From positions 1 through 7,898 of IMG/VR virus record IMGVR_UViG_2802429253_000006: a stretch of 7,898 bases of DNA; one strand, given 5' to 3'. The notes under the pieces were generated by a model. The model did not search any database. It was not told where the DNA came from and saw nothing but the letters and a program-made list of their open reading frames with translations. The stretch's first letter is position 1, and every line of letters starts with the position of its first letter. Made by a program: the position numbers and the translations under genes. Below are positions 1 through 7,898 of the stretch, one piece after another. This DNA is from a virus (lineage: Duplodnaviria > Heunggongvirae > Uroviricota > Caudoviricetes).

Positions 1-397
1 TAAGGCAGTTACCCATTTTGAGGTATCCGCTGTCACCGGGAAAAATCATCGTACCGCCATAAAGGTTGGTAAAGTCCCAGCAAATGTTTGTCCCGTTATC
101 GTTCAGGTTAAGGCGCGCCATTGCGTTCCCTGGGCTGTCTATCCATTTTTTAAGGTATAGTTCGCAATACGCATCCTCAACACCTGCCGTCCTGTGAGTT
201 GAGCGAAGTTTTCGCCCAAATATAGCCCCGCTAGTTGGCAATACCTGCTGATACCATGCAGCAGACCAGTCATTAACGGTTTCATTTTTGCTGTCTACAT
301 ATGATTTTGTTACGTAGCTTCCTTGATCAGTTTTTAGTTTACTAACATCGAATTTTAGCGTTTTGATGTCATCAGGAATTACTGTTTTTGTAACCAT
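1..397 (-). CDS. Hypothetical protein, 5' part only (ORF runs off the left edge of the window); third gene of a minus-strand host operon
   Basis: ATG at complement 395-397, preceded by GGAG (complement of 405-408) with a 7-nt spacer. Hand translation of the minus strand is open to the window edge (MVTKTVIPDDIKTLKFDVSKLKTDQGSYVTKSYVDSKNETVNDW...). Absent from the ORF track only because it is incomplete. No family recognised. Confidence 0.5.
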   Translation of the reverse strand, partial: MVTKTVIPDDIKTLKFDVSKLKTDQGSYVTKSYVDSKNETVNDWSAAWYQQVLPTSGAIFGRKLRSTHRTAGVEDAYCELYLKKWIDSPGNAMARLNLNDNGTNICWDFTNLYGGTMIFPGDSGYLKMGNCL

Positions 398-409
398 TGT
401 CTTACTCCA

Positions 410-679
410 TTAAGCCCATGTCCTTACATGCTGATCTGTCGTAATGAAAGGCATTAAAGAAGATATGTTTTTACTGCTATCAACAATCCTCATGTTTACG
501 AAAAAACCACCGCGATCAATGCCTGTACATCTTTCGTTTTCTGGCTCCTCGTAATCGATAATGCAGCCAATAACATCAACAAGAACCCCGTTTTCTTCTT
601 CAAGACTGAACAGGCCACTGTCATATAAAATTGCGTTAAACTGTTCTCTGTTATCGAACCGTAATGTTATATCCCGCAT
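410..679 (-). CDS. Hypothetical small acidic protein (89 aa), middle gene of host operon
   Basis: ORF-track ORF. Its ATG (complement 677-679) overlaps the TAA stop of the upstream gene as TAATG, with AAGGAA 8 nt upstream, which indicates translational coupling. Only 10 nt separate its stop (410-412) from the RBS of the next gene. Confidence 0.5.
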   Translation of the reverse strand: MRDITLRFDNREQFNAILYDSGLFSLEEENGVLVDVIGCIIDYEEPENERCTGIDRGGFFVNMRIVDSSKNISSLMPFITTDQHVRTWA

Positions 680-1815
680 TATACGTATTCCTTAAGCTGC
701 GTATCTGACAATGCTCTGTTCCAGAAACGGAGATTTTTTATATGACCATTAAGGTGTCGTAATCCTGTCGTCGCTTGCCCCCCGATACGAATCACGGCAG
801 CTTCACGAATATATTTCCATACTGTTTTTGTTTCTGTGCTTATATGCTTATTTGCAAATGAGCATGTCATGCCGTCAGCCTTAACCCTGAATCCCATAAC
901 GAGATCTCTTACTCCGCATGACTCATATACACGTCGGTTAGCCCCGCCTATATCGCAATACGAATAACCGTCCTGACTGATAGTTCCAGAAGAACCAAAC
1001 CCCATAATAAATGGACCTCCGGACTGGTGATTTTCTGAATCAATGACACGCGGTGCAGCATTATGAGAAATAAACCAGTTTTTATGGACTTCCACCATGA
1101 ACGTAAAAGGCATGGTATACATATTTTTCATCAGCGGAAATTTACATAAATCTGATGCACGAGTCGCTGGCTCTGTTGTCGTTATGATGAAGGAAGTTGC
1201 ACAAGCACCGTACTCGAATTGCGGGGTGGTTACTTCTATCCAGTCACCTGTTGCAAAAGACCCCACAGCTCTGTCGGCTGCAATTTGCAGCTGCGTACCA
1301 ACCATTCCCCATTCTGGCAGACATTTCAGTGTTGCCTGAAAATATATCCACCCACTACCAGGGTCGATTTCAAAGTTTGCTGTTAATAGCTGGGCATTAC
1401 CACCCGTAATTTGTAGTTCATGAGTCTGTAATGACAAATAGGCGTCACAAAGAAAAGTGTATCCTTCCGAGTTATACCGTTCAAAACGGATACGTGCGCG
1501 AACATTGAGATCACTTCTTACCCTGAACGACGCGGTAACATACGGACCTTTACTGTACTGATCATCGCCAGTCACATCTATGCCTTTATTACCAGCAACT
1601 GTGCATATATTTCTCCCTGTTGTCGTTCCTGCTATATCGCTTCCTACCGTGAAACGTCCATATTTAAACTCAAATTCATCTGTTGATGATGTTACAGATA
1701 TACCACCGCTTTTATTCCACGCATCAGGATTAAAACTATTTACGAACATGTTTGTTCGCTGATTCTCTATCAGCAAACCATATTTTTCAAAACGAGGAAC
1801 GTTATTCCCTGCCAC
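679..1815 (-). pseudogene. 5'-truncated host gene, apparently disrupted by the prophage insertion; C-terminal LamG/concanavalin-like lectin-type domain, possibly phage tail-fibre-like
   Basis: The ORF-track start is a GTG at 1813-1815 with no Shine-Dalgarno sequence. The same frame stays open for three more codons into the Mu-like end and hits a stop at 1825-1827, so the true N-terminus is missing. The C-terminal motif ...HLNGHIKNLRFWNRALSDTQLKEYV is typical of LamG-type jelly-roll domains. Confidence 0.55.
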
Positions 1816-1820
1816 TGTAT

Positions 1821-1842
1821 TGATTCACGAGAAGTACGAAAA
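1821..1842 (+). other. attL MuA end-binding site L1
   Basis: tgattcacgagaagtacgaaaa matches the 22-bp MuA site consensus as I recall it (TGNTTCAYTNNAARYRCGAAAR) with one mismatch at position 9. It sits 5 bp inside the TG terminus. Confidence 0.7.
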
Positions 1843-1925
1843 AAACCGGGAGGATATTGGATTATTCGGGATTTGACGGGATTAGATTTGGTGGGGCTTG
1901 CAAGCCTGTAGAACAGATTTTAGCC

Positions 1926-1947
1926 GTTAAGCATTGAAACGCGAAAA
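1926..1947 (+). other. attL MuA end-binding site L2 (approximate; orientation uncertain)
   Basis: ...attgaaacgcgaaaa: the right half (AAACGCGAAAA) fits the consensus and the left half is poor. Position relative to the end (about 110-130 bp in) matches Mu L2. Confidence 0.4.
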
Positions 1948-1965
1948 TTTGTTAGAAATGGCTTT

Positions 1966-1987
1966 TGTTTCATTAAACATACGAAAA
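1966..1987 (+). other. attL MuA end-binding site L3
   Basis: tgtttcattaaacatacgaaaa matches the MuA site consensus at all but one defined position. Confidence 0.6.
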
Positions 1988-2155
1988 GCAATTGCTTCAC
2001 GCATTATTTCAATTGCAGCTTCAAAAACGCTTCAAACCCGATAACAACCAGGCTTCTGGCGAATGACGTATATCAAAAACAGCTTTTGTTGTTTCAGTAT
2101 CTTACCCTCTAGGTTACTTGAGGGGAAGTGTGTGTTTTAGCTAGGTTCCTGGTTG

Positions 2156-2746
2156 TTATACGGCTTTTTTTACATCTTGTGGATCCTGCAAAGGAGCTAC
2201 AAGACTCTCCTGTTCATTAATCCCATACTTTGACAAAATCTCTTTGCGTTTCTCTTCAGGTAATGCATCTAGCATCATCAACGTCTGGATACTTTGCTGT
2301 GAAAATCCTATAAAGCTGTAAAGTTTCTGTTCATTAAACACAAGAGGCATTAACGCCAATAGTCCACCTTTGCTTAAGAGTTTCAGTGCCTTACGTGCTT
2401 CATCTGGTTCCAGTTCTTCGATCATATTGATTAAGGTTGTAGTTAATTTGTTTATCAGCTCCGAAGAATCCTGCTGCTCATTAGCTTGAGCAGCAGTGCC
2501 AGGAATAGACAGACCTAGGTGTGCAATAACTTGCTCTCGTTCTTTGGTGGGCATAGACATCACATCGTATTCAACTGCTTTCCCCCCCTTCACACCTTCC
2601 TTTTTTCGCTTTATCCAGCCTTGAACATTTGCCCGATAGTGAACACCAGCAACAGATCCTGGCATACCATCAGCAGCCATAATTTCTTGCGGCGTACACC
2701 AGATCGACTTTTTAGTATCACCATTTTCTATAAAGTCACTTTTCAA
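2156..2746 (-). CDS. c: Mu-type repressor c (Repc), 196 aa
   Basis: The protein (MKSDFIENGDTKKSIWCTPQEIMAADGMPGSVAGVHYRANVQGW...QDPQDVKKAV) is near-identical in length and sequence to the phage Mu repressor as I recall it. The start is TTG (complement 2744-2746) with AAGGA 8 nt upstream. It is transcribed leftward toward attL. Confidence 0.9.
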   Translation of the reverse strand: MKSDFIENGDTKKSIWCTPQEIMAADGMPGSVAGVHYRANVQGWIKRKKEGVKGGKAVEYDVMSMPTKEREQVIAHLGLSIPGTAAQANEQQDSSELINKLTTTLINMIEELEPDEARKALKLLSKGGLLALMPLVFNEQKLYSFIGFSQQSIQTLMMLDALPEEKRKEILSKYGINEQESLVAPLQDPQDVKKAV

Positions 2747-2771
2747 AATTTAAATCCTTATTTTTCAATTA

Positions 2772-2800
2772 ATTATGCAAAACACACCTAACAATACCAA
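2772..2800 (-). promoter_or_regulatory. Candidate repressor promoter Pc (minus strand: -35 TTGGTA = complement of 2795-2800, 17-bp spacer, -10 CATAAT = complement of 2772-2777)
   Basis: Sigma70-like hexamers on the minus strand about 30 nt upstream of the c RBS, back to back with the Pe candidate. Confidence 0.35.
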
Positions 2801-2808
2801 AAAGCAGC

Positions 2809-2837
2809 TTTACAAAAAGCTTTTCAGTATTTATCTT
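2809..2837 (+). promoter_or_regulatory. Candidate early promoter Pe (-35 TTTACA 2809-2814, 17-bp spacer, -10 TATCTT 2832-2837)
   Basis: Sigma70-like hexamers with 17-bp spacing. The predicted start near 2843-2845 is about 1028 bp from the prophage end, matching the Pe start position in Mu as I recall it. The palindrome AAAAGCTTTT lies in the spacer. Confidence 0.45.
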
Positions 2838-2914
2838 TTTGGCAAGTAAACTAAGTTTTTACACTTAGTTAAATTGCTAACTTTATAGATTACAAAACTT
2901 AGGAGGGTTTTTAA

Positions 2915-3142
2915 ATGTGTTCCAGCGAAAAGGTCCGTGATTGGCATCGTGCTGATGTGATTGCGGGACTTAAGAAAAGAAAGCTCTCTTTATCAGCTCT
3001 TTCTCGGCAATTTGGTTATGCGCCAACGACATTAGCTAATGCGCTAGAGCGGCACTGGCCAAAGGGCGAACAGATTATTGCTAACGCCCTTGAAACTAAA
3101 CCAGAAGTCATCTGGCCTAGCCGATATCAAGCAGGTGAATAA
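2915..3142 (+). CDS. ner: Ner DNA-binding transcriptional regulator (negative regulator of early transcription), 75 aa
   Basis: The protein ([51 protein letters not shown]...) matches Mu Ner as I recall it. AGGAGG RBS at 2901-2906. The TAA stop at 3140-3142 is one nucleotide before the A start. Confidence 0.9.
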
Positions 3143-3143
3143 T

Positions 3144-5135
3144 ATGGAACTTTGGGTGTCACCGAAAGAGTGTGCGAATCTTCCAGGCTTGCCGAAAACA
3201 TCAGCTGGTGTGATTTATGTCGCTAAGAAGCAAGGATGGCAAAACCGCACTAGGGCAGGTGTCAAAGGAGGTAAGGCAATTGAATACAATGCTAACTCTT
3301 TACCTGTTGAAGCGAAAGCGGCTTTATTGCTTAGGCAAGGAGAGATTGAAACAAGCCTGGGCCGTTTTGAAATCGCCCGCCCCACGCTGGAAGCCCACGA
3401 TTATGATCGTGAGGTGCTGTGGAGCAAATGGGATAACGCCAGCGATTCCCAGCGCAGACTTGCTGAAAAATGGTTGCCTGCAGTTCAGGCCGCAGACGAA
3501 ATGCTGAACCAGGGTATTTCAACAAAAACGGCTTTTGCGACCGTTGCAGGGCATTACCAGGTCAGTGCATCCACTTTGCGTGACAAGTATTACCAGGTAC
3601 AGAAGTTTGCGAAGCCTGACTGGGCGGCTGCGCTTGTTGATGGACGTGGTGCATCCCGTCGCAACGTTCACAAAAGTGAATTTGACGAGGATGCCTGGCA
3701 GTTTCTGATTGCAGATTATCTGCGACCGGAAAAGCCCGCCTTCCGCAAATGTTATGAGCGTCTGGAACTGGCAGCCCGCGAGCATGGCTGGAGTATTCCC
3801 TCCCGTGCCACGGCCTTTCGCCGGATTCAGCAACTGGACGAGGCAATGGTTGTTGCCTGTCGTGAAGGTGAACATGCACTGATGCATCTGATACCGGCAC
3901 AGCAGCGAACTGTGGAACACCTGGACGCCATGCAGTGGATCAACGGCGACGGTTATCTGCATAACGTCTTTGTACGCTGGTTTAACGGTGATGTGATCCG
4001 TCCGAAAACATGGTTCTGGCAGGATGTGAAAACCCGAAAAATTCTGGGCTGGCGCTGCGATGTGAGCGAGAACATTGATTCAATTCGCCTCTCGTTCATG
4101 GATGTTGTGACTCGCTACGGTATCCCGGAGGATTTTCACATCACCATTGATAACACCCGTGGTGCTGCGAATAAATGGCTGACGGGAGGCGCGCCCAATC
4201 GCTACCGCTTTAAGGTAAAAGAGGACGATCCAAAAGGACTGTTTTTACTGATGGGGGCGAAAATGCACTGGACAAGCGTTGTTGCCGGTAAAGGCTGGGG
4301 CCAGGCAAAACCTGTTGAACGTGCTTTCGGTGTTGGTGGGCTTGAGGAATACGTTGATAAGCATCCGGCACTGGCTGGCGCATATACGGGGCCAAATCCG
4401 CAGGCAAAACCTGATAACTATGGCGACCGCGCTGTTGATGCAGAGCTGTTTCTGAAAACCCTTGCCGAAGGTGTGGCGATGTTCAATGCCAGAACAGGCC
4501 GTGAAACAGAAATGTGCGGGGGCAAACTCTCGTTTGATGATGTTTTCGAGCGTGAATACGCCAGAACGATTGTGCGTAAGCCAACCGAAGAACAAAAACG
4601 GATGCTGTTACTGCCTGCCGAGGCGGTGAACGTTTCACGCAAAGGCGAGTTTACGCTTAAAGTTGGCGGCTCCCTTAAAGGCGCGAAAAACGTTTATTAC
4701 AACATGGCGTTAATGAATGCCGGAGTGAAAAAAGTTGTGGTCAGGTTTGATCCACAGCAGCTACACAGCACGGTTTATTGCTACACCCTGGACGGTCGGT
4801 TTATCTGTGAAGCGGAATGTCTGGCACCAGTTGCATTTAATGATGCTGCGGCAGGCCGTGAGTATCGTCGACGCCAGAAACAACTGAAATCTGCAACTAA
4901 AGCAGCCATTAAGGCGCAGAAGCAAATGGACGCGCTGGAAGTTGCTGAACTGCTGCCGCAGATAGCCGAACCAGCAGCGCCAGAATCAAGGGTTGTTGGT
5001 ATTTTCCGGCCTTCCGGTAACACGGTGCAGGTGAAATACCAGGAACCCGATGATGAATATGAAACTGATCGTGATGAATATCTGAATCACTCGCTGGATA
5101 TTCTGGAACAGAACAGACGTAAAAAAGCCATTTAA
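3144..5135 (+). CDS. A: MuA DDE transposase, 663 aa
   Basis: The N-terminus [32 protein letters not shown]... and the C-terminus ...[10 protein letters not shown] (the Mu transposase tail recognised by ClpX) are both present. From ATG 3144 the catalytic codons fall at the canonical positions: D269 (GAC 3948-3950, in NGDGY), D336 (GAT 4149-4151, in ITIDNT) and E392 (GAA 4317-4319, in PVERAF). The ORF track's start at 3078 is an in-frame extension that overlaps ner. Confidence 0.95.
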
Positions 5136-5173
5136 TTAACGTTTAAACAAAATTTAATTACGAGGTTATTCAG

Positions 5174-6112
5174 ATGAATATTTCTGATATTCGCGCAGGA
5201 CTGCGCACGCTTGTAGAAAGCGAAAAAACAACTTATGCGCAAATCGCCCGCGAATCTGGAGTTGCCGCAGGAACGTTAAGCGCGTTCGTGAATAACAAGT
5301 ACAACGGCGATAATGAGCGTGTTGCGCAGACGCTGGAACGCTGGCTGGAGAACTATCACCGCGCCGCAGAACTGCCAGAACCCCCTCGTTTTGTGGAAAC
5401 CAGAACAGCACGTCAAATCTGGACGAGTATGCGCTTTGCCAGCCTGACTGAAAGTATTTCTGTTATCTGCGGTAATCCAGGTGTGGGAAAAACTGAAGCA
5501 GCCCGCGAATTTCGTCGCACCAATAACAATGTCTGGATGATCACCATTACCCCATCCTGTGCCAGTGTTCTGGAATGCCTGACTGAACTGGCTTATGAAC
5601 TGGGAATGAATGACGCACCGCGCCGTAAGGGGCCACTCTCCCGCGCTTTGCGACGCCGCCTTGAAGGTACGCAGGGGCTGGTCATTATCGACGAAGCTGA
5701 TCATCTTGGCGCTGAGGTTCTGGAAGAACTCCGCCTGTTACAGGAATCCGCCCGTATTGGTCTTGTTCTGATGGGGAATCACCGTGTTTATTCAAACATG
5801 ACCGGTGGTAACAGAACGGTTGAATTTGCCCGCCTGTTTTCCCGTATTGCAAAGCGGACGGCAATTAATAAAACCAAAATTGACGATGTAAAAGCCATTG
5901 CGGATGCCTGGCAAATTACCGGCGAAAACGAGCGGGAATTATTACAGCAGATTGCTCAAAAACCAGGTGCGCTTCGCATCCTGAACCACTCGCTGCGCCT
6001 TGCGGCCATGACCGCCCACGGTAAAGGTGAACGTGTTAATGAAGATTATCTGCGTCAGGCTTTCCGTGAATTAGACCTGGACGTTGATATTTCAACGCTG
6101 CTGCGTAATTAA
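5174..6112 (+). CDS. B: MuB ATP-dependent target-DNA activator (AAA+ ATPase), 312 aa
   Basis: 312 aa with Walker A GNPGVGKT and Walker B LVIIDEAD. The N-terminus MNISDIRAGLRTLVESEKTTYAQIARESGVAAGTLSAFVNNKY contains an HTH and matches Mu B as I recall it. RBS ACGAGG at 5160-5165. Confidence 0.95.
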   Translation: MNISDIRAGLRTLVESEKTTYAQIARESGVAAGTLSAFVNNKYNGDNERVAQTLERWLENYHRAAELPEPPRFVETRTARQIWTSMRFASLTESISVICGNPGVGKTEAAREFRRTNNNVWMITITPSCASVLECLTELAYELGMNDAPRRKGPLSRALRRRLEGTQGLVIIDEADHLGAEVLEELRLLQESARIGLVLMGNHRVYSNMTGGNRTVEFARLFSRIAKRTAINKTKIDDVKAIADAWQITGENERELLQQIAQKPGALRILNHSLRLAAMTAHGKGERVNEDYLRQAFRELDLDVDISTLLRN

Positions 6113-6127
6113 GAAGGAGAAGAAATT

Positions 6128-6355
6128 ATGATGGCCCGAAATATAAAAATGGCAACGGATGCGCAGAACTGGTTACAGGCGCGCGGGAGTCATGTAAATG
6201 AATCATATCTCGGCGTGGCGCGTCCGATTCTTGAAATCACTTACCCACCGGTGGAACTGGTAAAAAGCGCGGTCAGAATTATGGAGCATAAGTCCGGGGT
6301 GGCCCGTTCTGTATGGACGGCCCGTCTTAATGGTTGCCAGATTATCTGGAGATAA
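6128..6355 (+). CDS. kil: Small early protein at the position of Mu kil (75 aa); identity assigned by position only
   Basis: First ORF after B, with RBS AGGAG at 6115-6119 and an 8-nt spacer. Its size and position match Mu kil (about 74 aa). I do not recognise the sequence itself. Confidence 0.5.
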
Positions 6356-6357
6356 CG

Positions 6358-6588
6358 ATGTGTATTAAAGCTGAAAAATATATTGAATGGGTTAAACACT
6401 GTCAGTGCCACGGGGTGCCGCTGACGACATATAAATGCCCCGGATGTGGTGAACAGATTATGACGCAATGCTCACCCGAAAAGGAAATTCGGGATTCCCT
6501 GACATGTTGTCCGTGGTGCAGCGCGGTTTTCTTTAAGCAGGTAGAAGGCGCGAAGGTAAAGGTCAGCGCAATTATTCAGAATCAATAA
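6358..6588 (+). CDS. Cys-rich small protein, putative zinc ribbon (76 aa from ATG 6358)
   Basis: GGAG at 6348-6351 with a 6-nt spacer to ATG 6358. Cysteine pairs are C-x-C-H (CQCH), C-x2-C (CPGC) and CC-x2-C (CCPWC). The ORF track's start at 6334 is a TTG inside the upstream gene and is less likely. Confidence 0.6.
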   Translation: MCIKAEKYIEWVKHCQCHGVPLTTYKCPGCGEQIMTQCSPEKEIRDSLTCCPWCSAVFFKQVEGAKVKVSAIIQNQ

Positions 6589-6599
6589 GGAGAAACAAA

Positions 6600-6863
6600 A
6601 TGGCAAAAGTCATTATCGAAATCAAAAATGTGACATCTGAAGTTAAAGGGCAGCATTTACGCACCAATGTTAACGTGGACCACAGCGCAGAACTGGATGG
6701 TGATGAGTACACGCTTGCTGGTGCGATAGCGTTACTGGTTCTGGAAAAAAGCCGGGATATCGTTCGCGAGTCAGCCCATGAGGCCATTGAAATACTGAAA
6801 AATGATGGCGTCATTTCGGGTGGCAGTGTCACAGAAGCGACAGTTGAAGGAACACGTCACTGA
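6600..6863 (+). CDS. Hypothetical early-region protein, acidic (87 aa)
   Basis: AAGGAG at 6588-6593 with a 6-nt spacer to ATG 6600. Packed directly after the previous stop in the same orientation. Confidence 0.6.
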   Translation: MAKVIIEIKNVTSEVKGQHLRTNVNVDHSAELDGDEYTLAGAIALLVLEKSRDIVRESAHEAIEILKNDGVISGGSVTEATVEGTRH

Positions 6864-6877
6864 AAGGAACGCTGACA

Positions 6878-7297
6878 ATGAACACCAAAATCAGAAACGA
6901 AATTCAGGCATTAATTCGAATAAAAATGCGTAATAACAATCCAGGAGAATTACGCGAATTTATTTTCACCCGCAAAGTTTATGAGCATGGTGAAACTACT
7001 TATCTGATTACATTTGACCATTACAGCATTTGTGCGCGTTATTGTGGCGAAAACATCTCTAATGCCATCACGTTTGGCGGTGCGTTTAACGAGGATTTAT
7101 GGGAATACGTCATGGACCGCGGATACATCAGCGCGTCAGACCCGGACGCACGGGAGCAGTGGCAGAACATCTGGCGCGATTACCGGCAAATGGCGAAAGG
7201 CTGGACGCAGGGGACGTATTCTTCCCTTGCCCTGAAAGCGGTTCAGTTATCGCTGCGGCATATTCCGGCATCACTGCGTGAACCCCTGTTGTACTGA
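6878..7297 (+). CDS. Hypothetical early-region protein (139 aa)
   Basis: AAGGA at 6864-6868 with a 9-nt spacer to ATG 6878. It is the longest frame here. The overlapping alternative-frame ORFs in the track lack an RBS. Confidence 0.6.
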   Translation: MNTKIRNEIQALIRIKMRNNNPGELREFIFTRKVYEHGETTYLITFDHYSICARYCGENISNAITFGGAFNEDLWEYVMDRGYISASDPDAREQWQNIWRDYRQMAKGWTQGTYSSLALKAVQLSLRHIPASLREPLLY

Positions 7298-7309
7298 GTG
7301 GTGACCGGA

Positions 7310-7597
7310 ATGATGTGTAAGCGTAAACGCTGGTCACGCGAAGACCGGGAATTTATCGAAGCCAGTGTCTGGAAAATGACCGTCGAGGAAATGGCGAAAA
7401 AACTGAAAGTTGCCACAACCGCTCTCCGGGCACATGCCAGAAGGCACGGAATATCGTTGTGTGTTTACCGAATAAGTGAGCACGACAAATATTTGTGTCG
7501 TGAACTTTATAAAGAAGGGCTGGCTATTCATGTCATTGCCCAAAAGATGGAATTAAGCAATCGTGCTGTATCCAGCATTGTATACAGCGAATATTAA
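7310..7597 (+). CDS. Hypothetical early-region protein with helix-turn-helix-like segments (about 95 aa; start at GTG 7298, ATG 7310 or ATG 7313)
   Basis: Frame open from 7298 to the TAA at 7595-7597. ATG 7310 and 7313 are preceded by GGTGA (7300-7304). The segments MTVEEMAKKLKVATTALRAHARRHGI and LAIHVIAQKMELSNRAVSSIV look like HTH motifs. Confidence 0.55.
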   Translation: MMCKRKRWSREDREFIEASVWKMTVEEMAKKLKVATTALRAHARRHGISLCVYRISEHDKYLCRELYKEGLAIHVIAQKMELSNRAVSSIVYSEY

Positions 7598-7615
7598 TTA
7601 ACAGGAGCTTTATTT

Positions 7616-7898
7616 ATGGCTAAATCAGCAAAGCGTATTAAAAGTGCCGCAGCGACTTATGTCCCACAATCCCGCGATGCCGTGGTATGTGATATCCGCC
7701 GGATTGGGGACCTGCAACGCGAAGCAGCACGACTTGAAACGGAAATGAATGACGCTATCGCTGAAATTACTGAGAAATACGCCTCACAGATTGCGCCCCT
7801 TAAAACCAGTATCGAAACCCTTTCAAAAGGCGTTCAGGGATGGTGTGAAGCGAACCGTGACGAACTGACGAACGGCGGCAAGGTGAAGACGGCAAACC
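7616..7898 (+). CDS. gam: Gam host-nuclease inhibitor (Ku-like DNA end-binding protein), N-terminal 94 codons; continues beyond the window
   Basis: MAKSAKRIKSAAATYVPQSRDAVVCDIRRIGDLQREAARLETEMNDAIAEITEKY...GWCEANRDELTNGGKVKTAN matches Mu Gam as I recall it. AGGAG RBS at 7603-7607. Confidence 0.9.
   Translation, partial: MAKSAKRIKSAAATYVPQSRDAVVCDIRRIGDLQREAARLETEMNDAIAEITEKYASQIAPLKTSIETLSKGVQGWCEANRDELTNGGKVKTAN

What the first reader, a model, noticed from the sequence alone, without database searches (positions are those of the whole stretch)
1..1815. Disrupted host operon: LamG-like protein plus two uncharacterised proteins, possibly from another phage-like element
Three minus-strand genes are tightly linked (a TAATG stop/start overlap and a 10-nt gap), so they form an operon. 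The upstream protein ends in a LamG/concanavalin-like module (NLRFWNRALSDTQLKEYV). Such jelly-roll domains are common in phage tail-fibre and receptor-binding proteins and in secreted adhesins. I do not recognise the two downstream proteins. By eye the region looks somewhat more AT-rich than the prophage (not computed), which would fit accessory or horizontally acquired DNA.
Basis: partly seen in the sequence, partly recalled or inferred. Interest (0 to 1): 0.5.

Follow-up and report, generated by a model that had tools for sequence, protein, structure and literature searches.

The report
Prophage tail-fibre genes cut by Mu
The three genes are the receptor-binding end of the side-tail-fibre gene set of a lambda-like prophage of E. 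coli, and the first is only the back half of a gene that a Mu-like prophage split by inserting into it, which is an ordinary, already annotated situation.

Summary
Three tightly linked minus-strand reading frames lie at 1-1815, and the region is AT-rich: 42.5% GC against 47.3% for the rest of the window.

The "378-aa protein" is not a whole gene. It is codons 408-785 of a 785-aa side tail fibre gene (stf). Intact, 96-98% identical copies sit downstream of J and lom in lambda-like prophages at dusA and in the isolated phage PhiR47_1. The frame stops at 1815 because base 1 of a Mu-like prophage starts at 1816. The Mu-like part is collinear with Mu bases 1-6078 at 90.6% identity.

The retained Stf part carries a domain homologous to the capsule-binding RcGTA head spike fibre. 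Its modelled fold resembles carbohydrate-binding modules. A sub-threshold LamG-like tail follows.

Next come an 89-aa protein of unknown function (phrog_1361) and the first 132 codons of a short second fibre. In full-length copies that fibre ends in an S74 self-cleaving chaperone domain.

This three-gene order, including the stop/start overlap, recurs in three diverged phage groups. It moves as a low-GC cassette between temperate and virulent coliphages.

Verdict: a known kind of phage receptor-binding module, inactivated by a Mu insertion. Interest is low. Only the role of the small protein is open.

The parts
1..397 (-). First 132 codons of a short second tail-fibre gene (346 aa when complete), cut by the end of the contig.
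   Evidence: The 132 residues are 125/132 identical to L001:11357-12397, 122/132 to phage Tritos and 124/132 to phage ESCO3. The full-length protein matches phrog_4563 'tail fiber protein' over 1-346. It has Peptidase_S74 (PF13884) at 227-278, 49.2 bits against a cut-off of 22. That domain lies outside the window.
398..409 (-). 12-nt intergenic spacer with a GGAG ribosome-binding site 8 nt before the ATG of the second fibre gene.
   Evidence: Read directly from the sequence. The minus strand reads TAA TGGAGTAAGACA ATG. The same 12-nt spacing is present in L001.
410..679 (-). 89-aa protein of unknown function (phrog_1361). Its start codon overlaps the stf stop codon (TAATG).
   Evidence: phrog_1361, E 1.9e-30 for the L001 copy and 1e-30 for the window copy. 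No Pfam or NCBIfam family. There are 90 cluster representatives at E<=1e-3, all about 85-110 aa. In 80 of 80 diverged viral loci it follows an Stf-like gene with a 1- or 4-nt overlap.
679..1815 (-). 3' fragment of the side tail fibre gene stf (codons 408-785 plus stop). It carries the GTA-head-spike-fibre-like domain and a LamG-like C-terminal tail. It has no start codon or promoter of its own.
   Evidence: 377 of 379 positions (378 residues plus the stop) are identical to the C-terminus of the 785-aa L001 protein WP_181204598. NF048003 GTA_spike_fiber covers Stf residues 422-627, 47.9 bits against a cut-off of 36. The family profile matches PDB 6tb9 Rcc01080 at E 1.1e-11. Laminin_G_3 covers fragment residues 326-374 at E 8.5e-4, below the cut-off.
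1811..1815 (.). GCCAC, the five target bases next to the Mu-like left end. This is the presumed left copy of the 5-bp target-site duplication.
   Evidence: The uninterrupted target in PhiR47_1 reads CCCTGCCAC|GGTAATATGCC. The right junction is not on this contig, so the duplication itself is unverified.
1816..2155 (+). Left end (attL) of the Mu-like prophage. This is what truncates stf.
   Evidence: Window 1816 aligns to base 1 of phage Mu. Window 1816-7898 is collinear with Mu bases 1-6078 at 90.6% identity.
2156..2746 (-). Mu-type repressor gene c. It is transcribed towards attL, in the same direction as the stf remnant. Listed as context only.
   Evidence: 196-aa ORF. Pfam HTH_Tnp_Mu_1 is listed on the called gene. 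The matching stretch of Mu is annotated as repressor protein c.

Best explanation
What is shown:
- Window 1-1815 is the far end of the late tail operon of a lambda-like E. coli prophage. In intact relatives this prophage sits next to dusA, with the gene order H-M-L-K-I-J-lom-stf-small ORF-second fibre.
- A Mu-like transposable prophage inserted into stf between codons 407 and 409. The window holds only the 3' 378 codons of stf, the 89-aa gene and the start of the second fibre gene.
- In the intact protein, an N-terminal PF08400 domain is followed by an Ala/Ser/Thr-rich repeat region.
- The distal part of intact Stf has a domain homologous to the capsule-binding RcGTA head spike fibre, with a fold like carbohydrate-binding modules, and then a LamG-like tail.

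What is inferred:
- The PF08400 domain fixes Stf to the tail and the repeat region acts as a shaft.
- The distal head binds a surface polysaccharide such as O-antigen or capsule.
- The 89-aa protein is translationally coupled to Stf and co-varies with the Stf head. It is most likely an assembly factor or adaptor for that head.
- The short S74 fibre has no virion-anchoring domain of its own. It most likely docks on the Stf head as a second receptor-binding tier after its C-terminal chaperone cleaves itself off.
- In this strain the insertion separates the fibre head from its anchor, shaft and late promoter by a whole Mu genome. The lambda-like prophage therefore cannot make side fibres.
- At roughly 43 kb plus 37 kb, the lambda-like prophage is also too long to be packaged intact.
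For: Identity and context:
- 96-98% identical uninterrupted loci are annotated as side tail fibre downstream of J and lom, in E. coli 1517k next to dusA and an integrase, and in phage PhiR47_1.
- The window ORF equals the last 378 residues of the 785-aa protein, beginning at Val408.

Junction:
- PhiR47_1 matches the window exactly over the aligned stretch up to 1815 and continues GGTAATATGCC. The window instead continues with TGTATTGATTCAC, which is Mu base 1.
- The same junction is present in a second assembly record.

Domains:
- PF08400 at 3-132.
- NF048003 at 422-627, above its cut-off.
- Profile match to Rcc01080, E 1.1e-11. Rcc01080 binds the capsule polysaccharide (PMC7296036, PMC10218006).
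- Laminin_G_3 is sub-threshold in 16 of 22 family members.

Cassette behaviour:
- The three-gene order recurs in temperate phage Tritos, in the virulent Nonagvirus ESCO3, and in 80 of 80 loci of a diverged IMG/VR clade. The 1- or 4-nt overlap was measured in the 80 IMG/VR loci, and the annotated coordinates give a 1-nt overlap in Tritos and ESCO3. An S74 third gene was seen in the loci checked.
- Against Tritos, the Stf head is 47-49% identical, the small protein 33% and the second fibre 95%.
- Between Tritos and ESCO3, the Stf head is 95% identical but the N-terminal part only 38%.
- Low GC is confined to the cassette.

Sizes:
- PhiR47_1 is 42,981 bp and Mu is 36,717 bp.
Against: - The right Mu junction and the 5' half of stf are not on this contig. 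Exact-pattern scans of the species-representative genomes found neither junction. The 5-bp duplication, and even the presence of the other stf half in this strain, are therefore unverified.
- GCCAC matches only the central YSR of the Mu target consensus CYSRG (PMC7350765).
- No binding or assembly role was tested.
- The model of the LamG-like tail is unreliable, with pLDDT below 50 for most of residues 203-361.
- The 80 syntenic loci are closely related to one another (82-100% identical small ORF), so they count as one extra lineage, not 80.
Confidence: 0.9

Rival explanations
1. One reading: a complete three-gene host operon whose first gene encodes a stand-alone 378-aa LamG-like secreted adhesin starting at the GTG at 1815.
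For: An open frame with a GTG start is listed at 679-1815. A gene caller also called a 378-aa product on the source contig.
Against: The GTG is Val408 of a 785-aa gene in uninterrupted, 96-98% identical loci. The frame is bounded by a TGA inside the Mu-like end. No Shine-Dalgarno-like sequence precedes the GTG (AATCAATACA). In every intact locus examined the neighbours are phage tail genes.
Confidence: 0.02
2. Bases 1-1815 are host DNA carried on the left end of a packaged Mu-like virion genome, or they are part of the Mu-like phage itself, rather than a chromosomal insertion site.
For: Mu particles do carry flanking host DNA. The segment directly abuts Mu base 1.
Against: From general knowledge of Mu packaging, about 50-150 bp of host DNA is carried at the left end, not 1.8 kb. 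The window is a contig of a bacterial draft assembly, GCA_002965125.1. Mu's own fibre genes lie at its right end. The segment is contiguous with lambda-like tail genes in other genomes.
Confidence: 0.03
3. The insertion story is the same, but the cassette works differently. The Stf head (CBM-like plus LamG-like) is itself the terminal receptor-binding tip. The 89-aa protein is a Tfa-like folding chaperone that is not part of the virion. The S74 protein is an independent second fibre attached elsewhere on the tail tip, not stacked on Stf.
For: The small protein co-varies with the Stf head and not with the second fibre. The recombination boundary between this cassette and Tritos falls at the small ORF/second fibre junction: nucleotide similarity to Tritos covers only window 1-416. 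The second fibre's N-terminus stays 92-95% identical while the Stf heads differ by about 50%. That is hard to reconcile with a docking surface on the head.
Against: The S74 protein has no recognisable tail-attachment domain. It is always encoded 11-12 nt after the small ORF in the three lineages examined. Two-protein lateral fibres in which one subunit hangs on the other are known in siphophages, for example DT57C LtfA/LtfB (PMC4728585).
Confidence: 0.35

Closest known systems
Phage lambda side tail fibre locus (stf-tfa) and its homologues in lambda-like prophages
   Same: Same position at the end of the tail operon after J and lom. Same N-terminal PF08400 attachment domain in the intact allele. 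Same general role as an accessory fibre whose distal part is swapped between phages. The intact gene is annotated 'side tail fiber protein Stf' in PhiR47_1.
   Different: No Tfa-type assembly gene follows. A phrog_1361 89-aa gene and a short S74 fibre gene follow instead. The distal part is a GTA-head-spike-fibre-like lectin-type head. In this window the gene is split by a Mu-like prophage.
RcGTA head spike fibre Rcc01080 (PDB 6tb9; NCBIfam NF048003)
   Same: Sequence homology over about 245 residues: E 1.1e-11 by family profile and NF048003 above its cut-off. Rcc01080 is a beta-rich, lectin-like protein shown to bind capsular polysaccharide (PMC10218006).
   Different: Rcc01080 is a 325-aa protein with a single subunit per head spike, anchored to the capsid vertex by an N-terminal (I/L)-G repeat (PMC7296036). 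Here the domain is the distal part of a tail fibre and carries an extra LamG-like C-terminal region of about 140 residues that is not aligned to Rcc01080.
Two-protein (branched) lateral tail fibres of T5-like phages DT57C and DT571/2 (LtfA/LtfB)
   Same: A siphophage lateral fibre built from two separately encoded proteins that carry receptor-binding parts (PMC4728585). Here the second fibre carries an S74-type C-terminal chaperone domain. The BASEL survey also notes that lateral fibres of small siphoviruses may consist of one or of two or more proteins (PMC8594841).
   Different: No sequence relationship to LtfA/LtfB was tested or found. The intervening 89-aa gene has no described counterpart. 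Attachment of the second fibre to Stf is inferred here, not shown.
Phage Mu insertion mutagenesis
   Same: The Mu-type left end begins exactly at the break in the target gene. Early-region gene order is identical to Mu at 90.6% identity. Insertion into an arbitrary gene is the classical behaviour of Mu (PMC7350765).
   Different: The target is a gene of another resident prophage. The 5-bp duplication could not be checked because the right end lies on another contig.

Membership tests
Lambdoid side tail fibre (Stf) | [quoted passage not shown] | tested here: met
   Intact, 96-98% identical loci have the order J - lom - stf - small ORF - second fibre. The window itself lacks the upstream part.
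Lambdoid side tail fibre (Stf) | N-terminal 'prophage tail fibre N-terminal' domain (PF08400) | tested here: not met
   The domain is present at residues 3-132 of the intact allele, 224 bits. It is absent from the window copy, which begins at codon 408. The window holds a gene fragment, not a functional member.
Lambdoid side tail fibre (Stf) | Followed by a Tfa-type tail fibre assembly gene, as in lambda | tested here: not met
   Neither downstream protein matches a tail-fibre-assembly family. The 89-aa protein matches only phrog_1361, of unknown function.
GTA/phage head spike fibre domain (NF048003; Rcc01080) | Score above the curated cut-off and homology to Rcc01080 | tested here: met
   47.9 bits against a cut-off of 36, Stf residues 422-627. 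The family profile matches 6tb9 chain F3 at E 1.1e-11.
GTA/phage head spike fibre domain (NF048003; Rcc01080) | Polysaccharide binding | not testable with these tools
LamG / Laminin_G_3 (PF13385, concanavalin A-like) | Pfam match above the gathering score | tested here: not met
   19.9 bits against 27.6, covering only the last third of the profile (103-150 of 151). Sub-threshold matches recur in 16 of 22 family members, best E 5.4e-5.
LamG / Laminin_G_3 (PF13385, concanavalin A-like) | Jelly-roll fold of the C-terminal region | tested here: inconclusive
   The AlphaFold2 model has pLDDT below 50 over most of residues 203-361. The family profile finds no PDB LamG chain at E<=10.
Tail fibre with S74 intramolecular chaperone (PF13884) | C-terminal Peptidase_S74 domain | tested here: met
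   49.2 bits against 22 at residues 227-278 of the full-length L001 protein. Also present in the third gene of a diverged clade. The domain lies beyond the left edge of the window, which keeps only residues 1-132.
Mu-type transposable prophage insertion | Element end matching the Mu left end at the exact break in the target | tested here: met
   Window 1816 is Mu base 1. The target is identical to PhiR47_1 up to 1815 and diverges from 1816.
Mu-type transposable prophage insertion | 5-bp target-site duplication flanking both ends | not testable with these tools
   The right end is not on the 7898-bp contig. Scans for the predicted right and left junctions in genome contigs found nothing.

The most novel reading that the evidence does not exclude
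The conserved trio may be an undescribed type of two-tier lateral fibre. The trio is an Stf with a GTA-head-spike-like lectin head, a translationally coupled phrog_1361 protein of about 90 aa, and a short S74 fibre. In this reading the small protein is a new class of fibre adaptor or assembly factor that replaces Tfa. It would either join the short fibre to the Stf head or fold that head. The whole unit would be traded as a low-GC cassette between temperate and virulent coliphages.
Probability: 0.35. Interest if true: 0.4.

Novelty: already known. Interest (0 to 1): 0.2.

Why it matters
It matters little beyond correct annotation.

- The 378-aa ORF should be labelled as a truncated stf pseudogene next to a Mu-like attL, not as a LamG-like host protein.
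- The strain carries a lambda-like prophage that a Mu-like phage has probably crippled. The lambda-like prophage has lost its side fibres and its genome is now too long to package.

One open point has some value. The 89-aa phrog_1361 protein is strictly linked to one type of fibre head in several phage lineages and has no known function. Knowing its role would help people who engineer chimeric Stf fibres to retarget lambda-based particles.

Tried and rejected
1. I tried to reach the right Mu junction and the source genome. The look-up by protein showed that the window is the whole contig. No complete E. coli genome carries this junction; the best coverage of window 1-2150 was 85%.

2. Single-sequence searches of PDB sequences gave nothing useful. 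The Stf fragment had no match at E<=1, and the 89-aa protein had only three chance-level matches at E about 1.

5. The first homologue search for the 89-aa protein found only 4 fragments. A profile search and the exhaustive representative search widened the family but added no names.

6. The search for related loci with the 40-member alignment failed because it had no conserved stretch. A tighter sub-alignment worked.

7. The promoter/terminator scan of 1-3000 found 4 promoter-like sites, below the shuffle mean of 7.3. It found 5 terminator-like sites against a shuffle mean of 2.0 (sd 1.2), none of them on the minus strand between the c stop codon and attL. I draw no conclusion from it.

8. 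The Nature 2024 paper on chimeric Stf (PMC11338833) does not mention this cassette.

9. I considered and rejected three readings: a stand-alone LamG adhesin, virion-packaged host DNA, and part of the Mu-like phage. See the rival explanations.
Full report
**1. What is in the sequence**

On the minus strand of window 1-1815 there are three reading frames:
- 679-1815, listed as 378 aa with a GTG start;
- 410-679, 89 aa;
- a frame that starts at the ATG at 397-395 and runs off the left end, giving 132 codons.

The first two overlap by one base (CATTA at 677-681, which is TAATG on the coding strand). The second and third are separated by 12 nt, not 10. That spacer contains GGAG 8 nt before the ATG.

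The first protein does end in NLRFWNRALSDTQLKEYV. GC content is 42.5% for 1-1815 and 47.3% for the rest of the window. The raw observation therefore stands, with small corrections.

**2. What lies to the right**

From 1816 the window is the left end of a Mu-like prophage. Window 1816 aligns to base 1 of phage Mu. Window 1816-7898 is collinear with Mu bases 1-6078 at 90.6% identity.

The gene order is that of Mu:
- repressor c, 2156-2746, minus strand;
- ner;
- transposase A;
- B;
- kil;
- gam, cut by the right end of the contig.

**3. What the three genes are**

The query window 1-2150, which includes the Mu-like end, has matches in 726 complete-genome E. coli records. The listed best hits for 1-1819 are 96-98% identical, and the isolated phage PhiR47_1 is 96.0% identical.

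In E. coli 1517k the matching stretch lies in a prophage beside dusA and an integrase. Its gene order is tape measure (H), M, L, K, I, J, lom, then three genes:
- a 785-aa 'prophage tail fiber N-terminal domain-containing protein';
- an 89-aa hypothetical protein;
- a 346-aa 'tail fiber domain-containing protein'.

PhiR47_1 has the same order and names the first gene side tail fibre Stf.

The window's 378-aa frame matches the last 378 residues of that 785-aa protein at all but two residues (377 of 379 positions counting the stop). Its 'GTG start' is the codon of Val408.

PhiR47_1 reads ...TTATTCCCTGCCAC|GGTAATATGCCCGGAC. The window reads ...TTATTCCCTGCCAC|TGTATTGATTCACGAG. The break coincides with Mu base 1. 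Read on the stf coding strand, an in-frame TGA lies inside the Mu-like end four codons before the GTG.

The first 'protein' is therefore the 3' remnant of an stf gene split by a Mu-type insertion. It has no start codon, no ribosome-binding site and no promoter of its own.

The five bases next to the end are GCCAC. They match only the central YSR of the degenerate Mu target consensus CYSRG (PMC7350765).

**4. Limits on the junction evidence**

The window is the entire contig PTSB01000053.1 of assembly GCA_002965125.1. A second record (Logan SRR3988016) carries the same junction.

The right end of the Mu-like element and the 5' half of stf are on other contigs. Scans for both junctions in the species-representative genome collection found nothing. 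No complete E. coli genome has this junction. The 5-bp duplication therefore remains unverified.

**5. Domains of Stf**

- The intact protein has PF08400 at residues 3-132. This is the tail-attachment domain typical of lambda-like side fibres. A long Ala/Ser/Thr-rich repeat region follows.
- From about residue 346 (PLPDIWLPLNDSL) the distal part begins.
- NCBIfam NF048003 'phage head spike fiber domain' matches residues 422-627 above its cut-off.
- A profile of 22 family members matches the RcGTA head spike fibre Rcc01080 (PDB 6tb9) at E 1.1e-11 over about 245 residues.
- Rcc01080 is the flexible, beta-rich protein that binds the Rhodobacter capsule. Only its residues 2-10 are resolved in the structure (PMC7296036, PMC10218006).
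Laminin_G_3 scores 19.9 bits against a gathering score of 27.6. Similar sub-threshold matches occur in 16 of 22 relatives.
- The model of that region is unreliable, and no PDB LamG chain is found by profile.
- The 'concanavalin-like lectin' idea is reasonable for the head as a whole. LamG membership itself is not established.

**6. The two downstream genes**

The third gene is a recognisable tail fibre, phrog_4563. Full-length copies carry a Peptidase_S74 intramolecular chaperone domain at 227-278, preceded by the typical SD...K motif. The window keeps only residues 1-132.

The 89-aa protein belongs to phrog_1361, which has no known function. It matches no Pfam or NCBIfam family. An exhaustive search found only 90 cluster representatives, nearly all stand-alone proteins of 85-110 aa. 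They share invariant D3, L6, G58, N62 and W88 and usually end in RVWA. Its model is poor and its fold matches are generic.

**7. The trio is a conserved, mobile cassette**

The same order occurs in the temperate phage Tritos and in the virulent Nonagvirus ESCO3. The order is an Stf-like gene, a small ORF overlapping its stop codon, and a short S74 fibre 9-12 nt later.

It also occurs in a third lineage, in which the small protein is about 30% identical to the one here. That lineage comprises 80 IMG/VR contigs that are closely related to one another, so they count as one lineage. In all 80:
- the small ORF is preceded by a gene that matches the Stf-head profile;
- the overlap is 1 nt in 78 loci and 4 nt in 2.

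In the loci examined, the next gene carries Peptidase_S74.

Comparisons between cassettes:

| Pair | Stf N-terminal part | Stf head | Small protein | Second fibre |
|---|---|---|---|---|
| This cassette vs Tritos | 92% | 47-49% | 33% | 95% |
| Tritos vs ESCO3 | 38% | 95% | not compared | 88% |

Nucleotide similarity to Tritos covers only window 1-416, which ends just inside the 3' end of the small ORF.

Low GC is confined to the cassette in the intact locus L001:

| Region | GC % | GC3 % |
|---|---|---|
| stf 3' half | 42.6 | 34.8 |
| small ORF | 38.9 | 34.4 |
| second fibre gene | 45.1 | 42.4 |
| stf 5' half | 52.8 | not used |
| J | 56.7 | not used |
| flanking host genes | 52-56 | not used |

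The head plus small ORF thus behaves as one co-evolving unit. The second fibre is a separately exchangeable module. The whole cassette moves between unrelated phage backbones. This agrees with the BASEL survey, which describes highly variable lateral-fibre loci conserved only at the 5' end of the first gene and built from one, two or more proteins (PMC8594841).

**8. How it most likely works (inference)**

In an intact phage, Stf is anchored by PF08400. It extends through the repeat shaft and presents a lectin-like head that binds a surface polysaccharide.

The small protein is made in step with Stf through translational coupling, and it co-varies with the head. It is most likely an assembly factor or adaptor for that head.

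The S74 fibre has no anchoring domain. It probably docks on the head or the small protein after self-cleavage, giving a two-tier fibre comparable in principle to LtfA/LtfB of DT57C (PMC4728585).

The main alternative is that the head is itself the tip, the small protein is a non-virion chaperone, and the S74 fibre attaches elsewhere. This alternative is supported by the near-identity of the second fibre's N-terminus across very different heads. I give it about one chance in three.

**9. Consequence in this strain (inference)**

The insertion separates the fibre head, the small ORF and the second fibre from the late promoter, the anchor and the shaft by a whole Mu genome. That genome is oriented so that lambda-like late transcription would have to cross it antisense to the Mu-like genes transcribed on the plus strand of the window.

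The lambda-like prophage therefore cannot make these side fibres. At about 43 kb plus about 37 kb it should exceed its packaging capacity (sizes).

The Mu c gene points towards attL, and the simple scan found no terminator-like site between them on that strand. Read-through into the remnant is possible but untested.

**10. Verdict**

The finding is real but ordinary. It is a known, already annotated prophage side-tail-fibre cassette interrupted by a classical Mu-type insertion.

- the linkage;
- the disruption;
- the phage origin;
- the fibre or lectin character;
- the AT-richness.

- the 'host operon';
- the completeness of the first gene.

The LamG label is unproven. The only open question is the function of the phrog_1361 protein.

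Noticed in passing
window 1816-7898: The Mu-like prophage is collinear with Mu at 90.6% identity overall. Its first ~330 bases are only about 81% identical to Mu, while the first 176 bases are 91% identical to Shigella phage SfMu. The closest complete-genome relative (E. coli STEC346) reaches only 95.1%. It appears to be a distinct Mu-family variant.
   Followed up: partly
window 1 and window 7898 (both contig ends): The window is the whole 7898-bp contig. It breaks inside the second fibre gene on the left and inside the Mu gam gene on the right. Both are repeated phage sequences, so the strain may carry further copies of each, that is, other lambda-like prophages and possibly a second Mu-like element.
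   Followed up: no
window 3078-3143 / 3144-5135: The mechanical ORF list gives the transposase a TTG start at 3078 (685 aa), overlapping the end of ner. The gene call on the source contig gives 663 aa, starting at about 3144. The longer form is probably an ORF-listing artefact.
   Followed up: no
NZ_CM128543.1 3490827-3493673 (hit H10): In another E. coli genome the same stf cassette is interrupted by an IS3-family element. This fibre locus has therefore been hit by mobile elements more than once.
   Followed up: no
L003 (phage Tritos) 5357-9060 and L004 (phage ESCO3) 2158-5600: A temperate lambda-like phage and a virulent Nonagvirus share the Stf head at 95% identity and the second fibre at 88%. 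Their Stf N-terminal parts are only 38% identical. This is a clear case of cassette exchange between lifestyles.
   Followed up: partly
protein P0005: A 585-aa protein from a Logan contig is 99% identical to the whole 378-aa Stf fragment but carries a Pfam major-capsid-protein-E match (PF03864) in its other part. This may be another rearrangement or an assembly chimera.
   Followed up: no
protein P0003: A 64-aa fragment shares the first 37 residues of the 89-aa protein apart from one substitution. One source names it 'CP4-44 prophage; predicted disrupted hemin or colicin receptor'. The name looks like a mis-transferred annotation on a cassette remnant.
   Followed up: no
L001 12679-15036 (intact Stf residues ~110-345): The shaft is built from near-perfect repeats such as KTSETNAK(S/A)SETAAKNSQ. 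Partial Stf proteins of many different lengths (569-660 aa) appear in draft assemblies. This repeat region probably breaks many assemblies.
   Followed up: no
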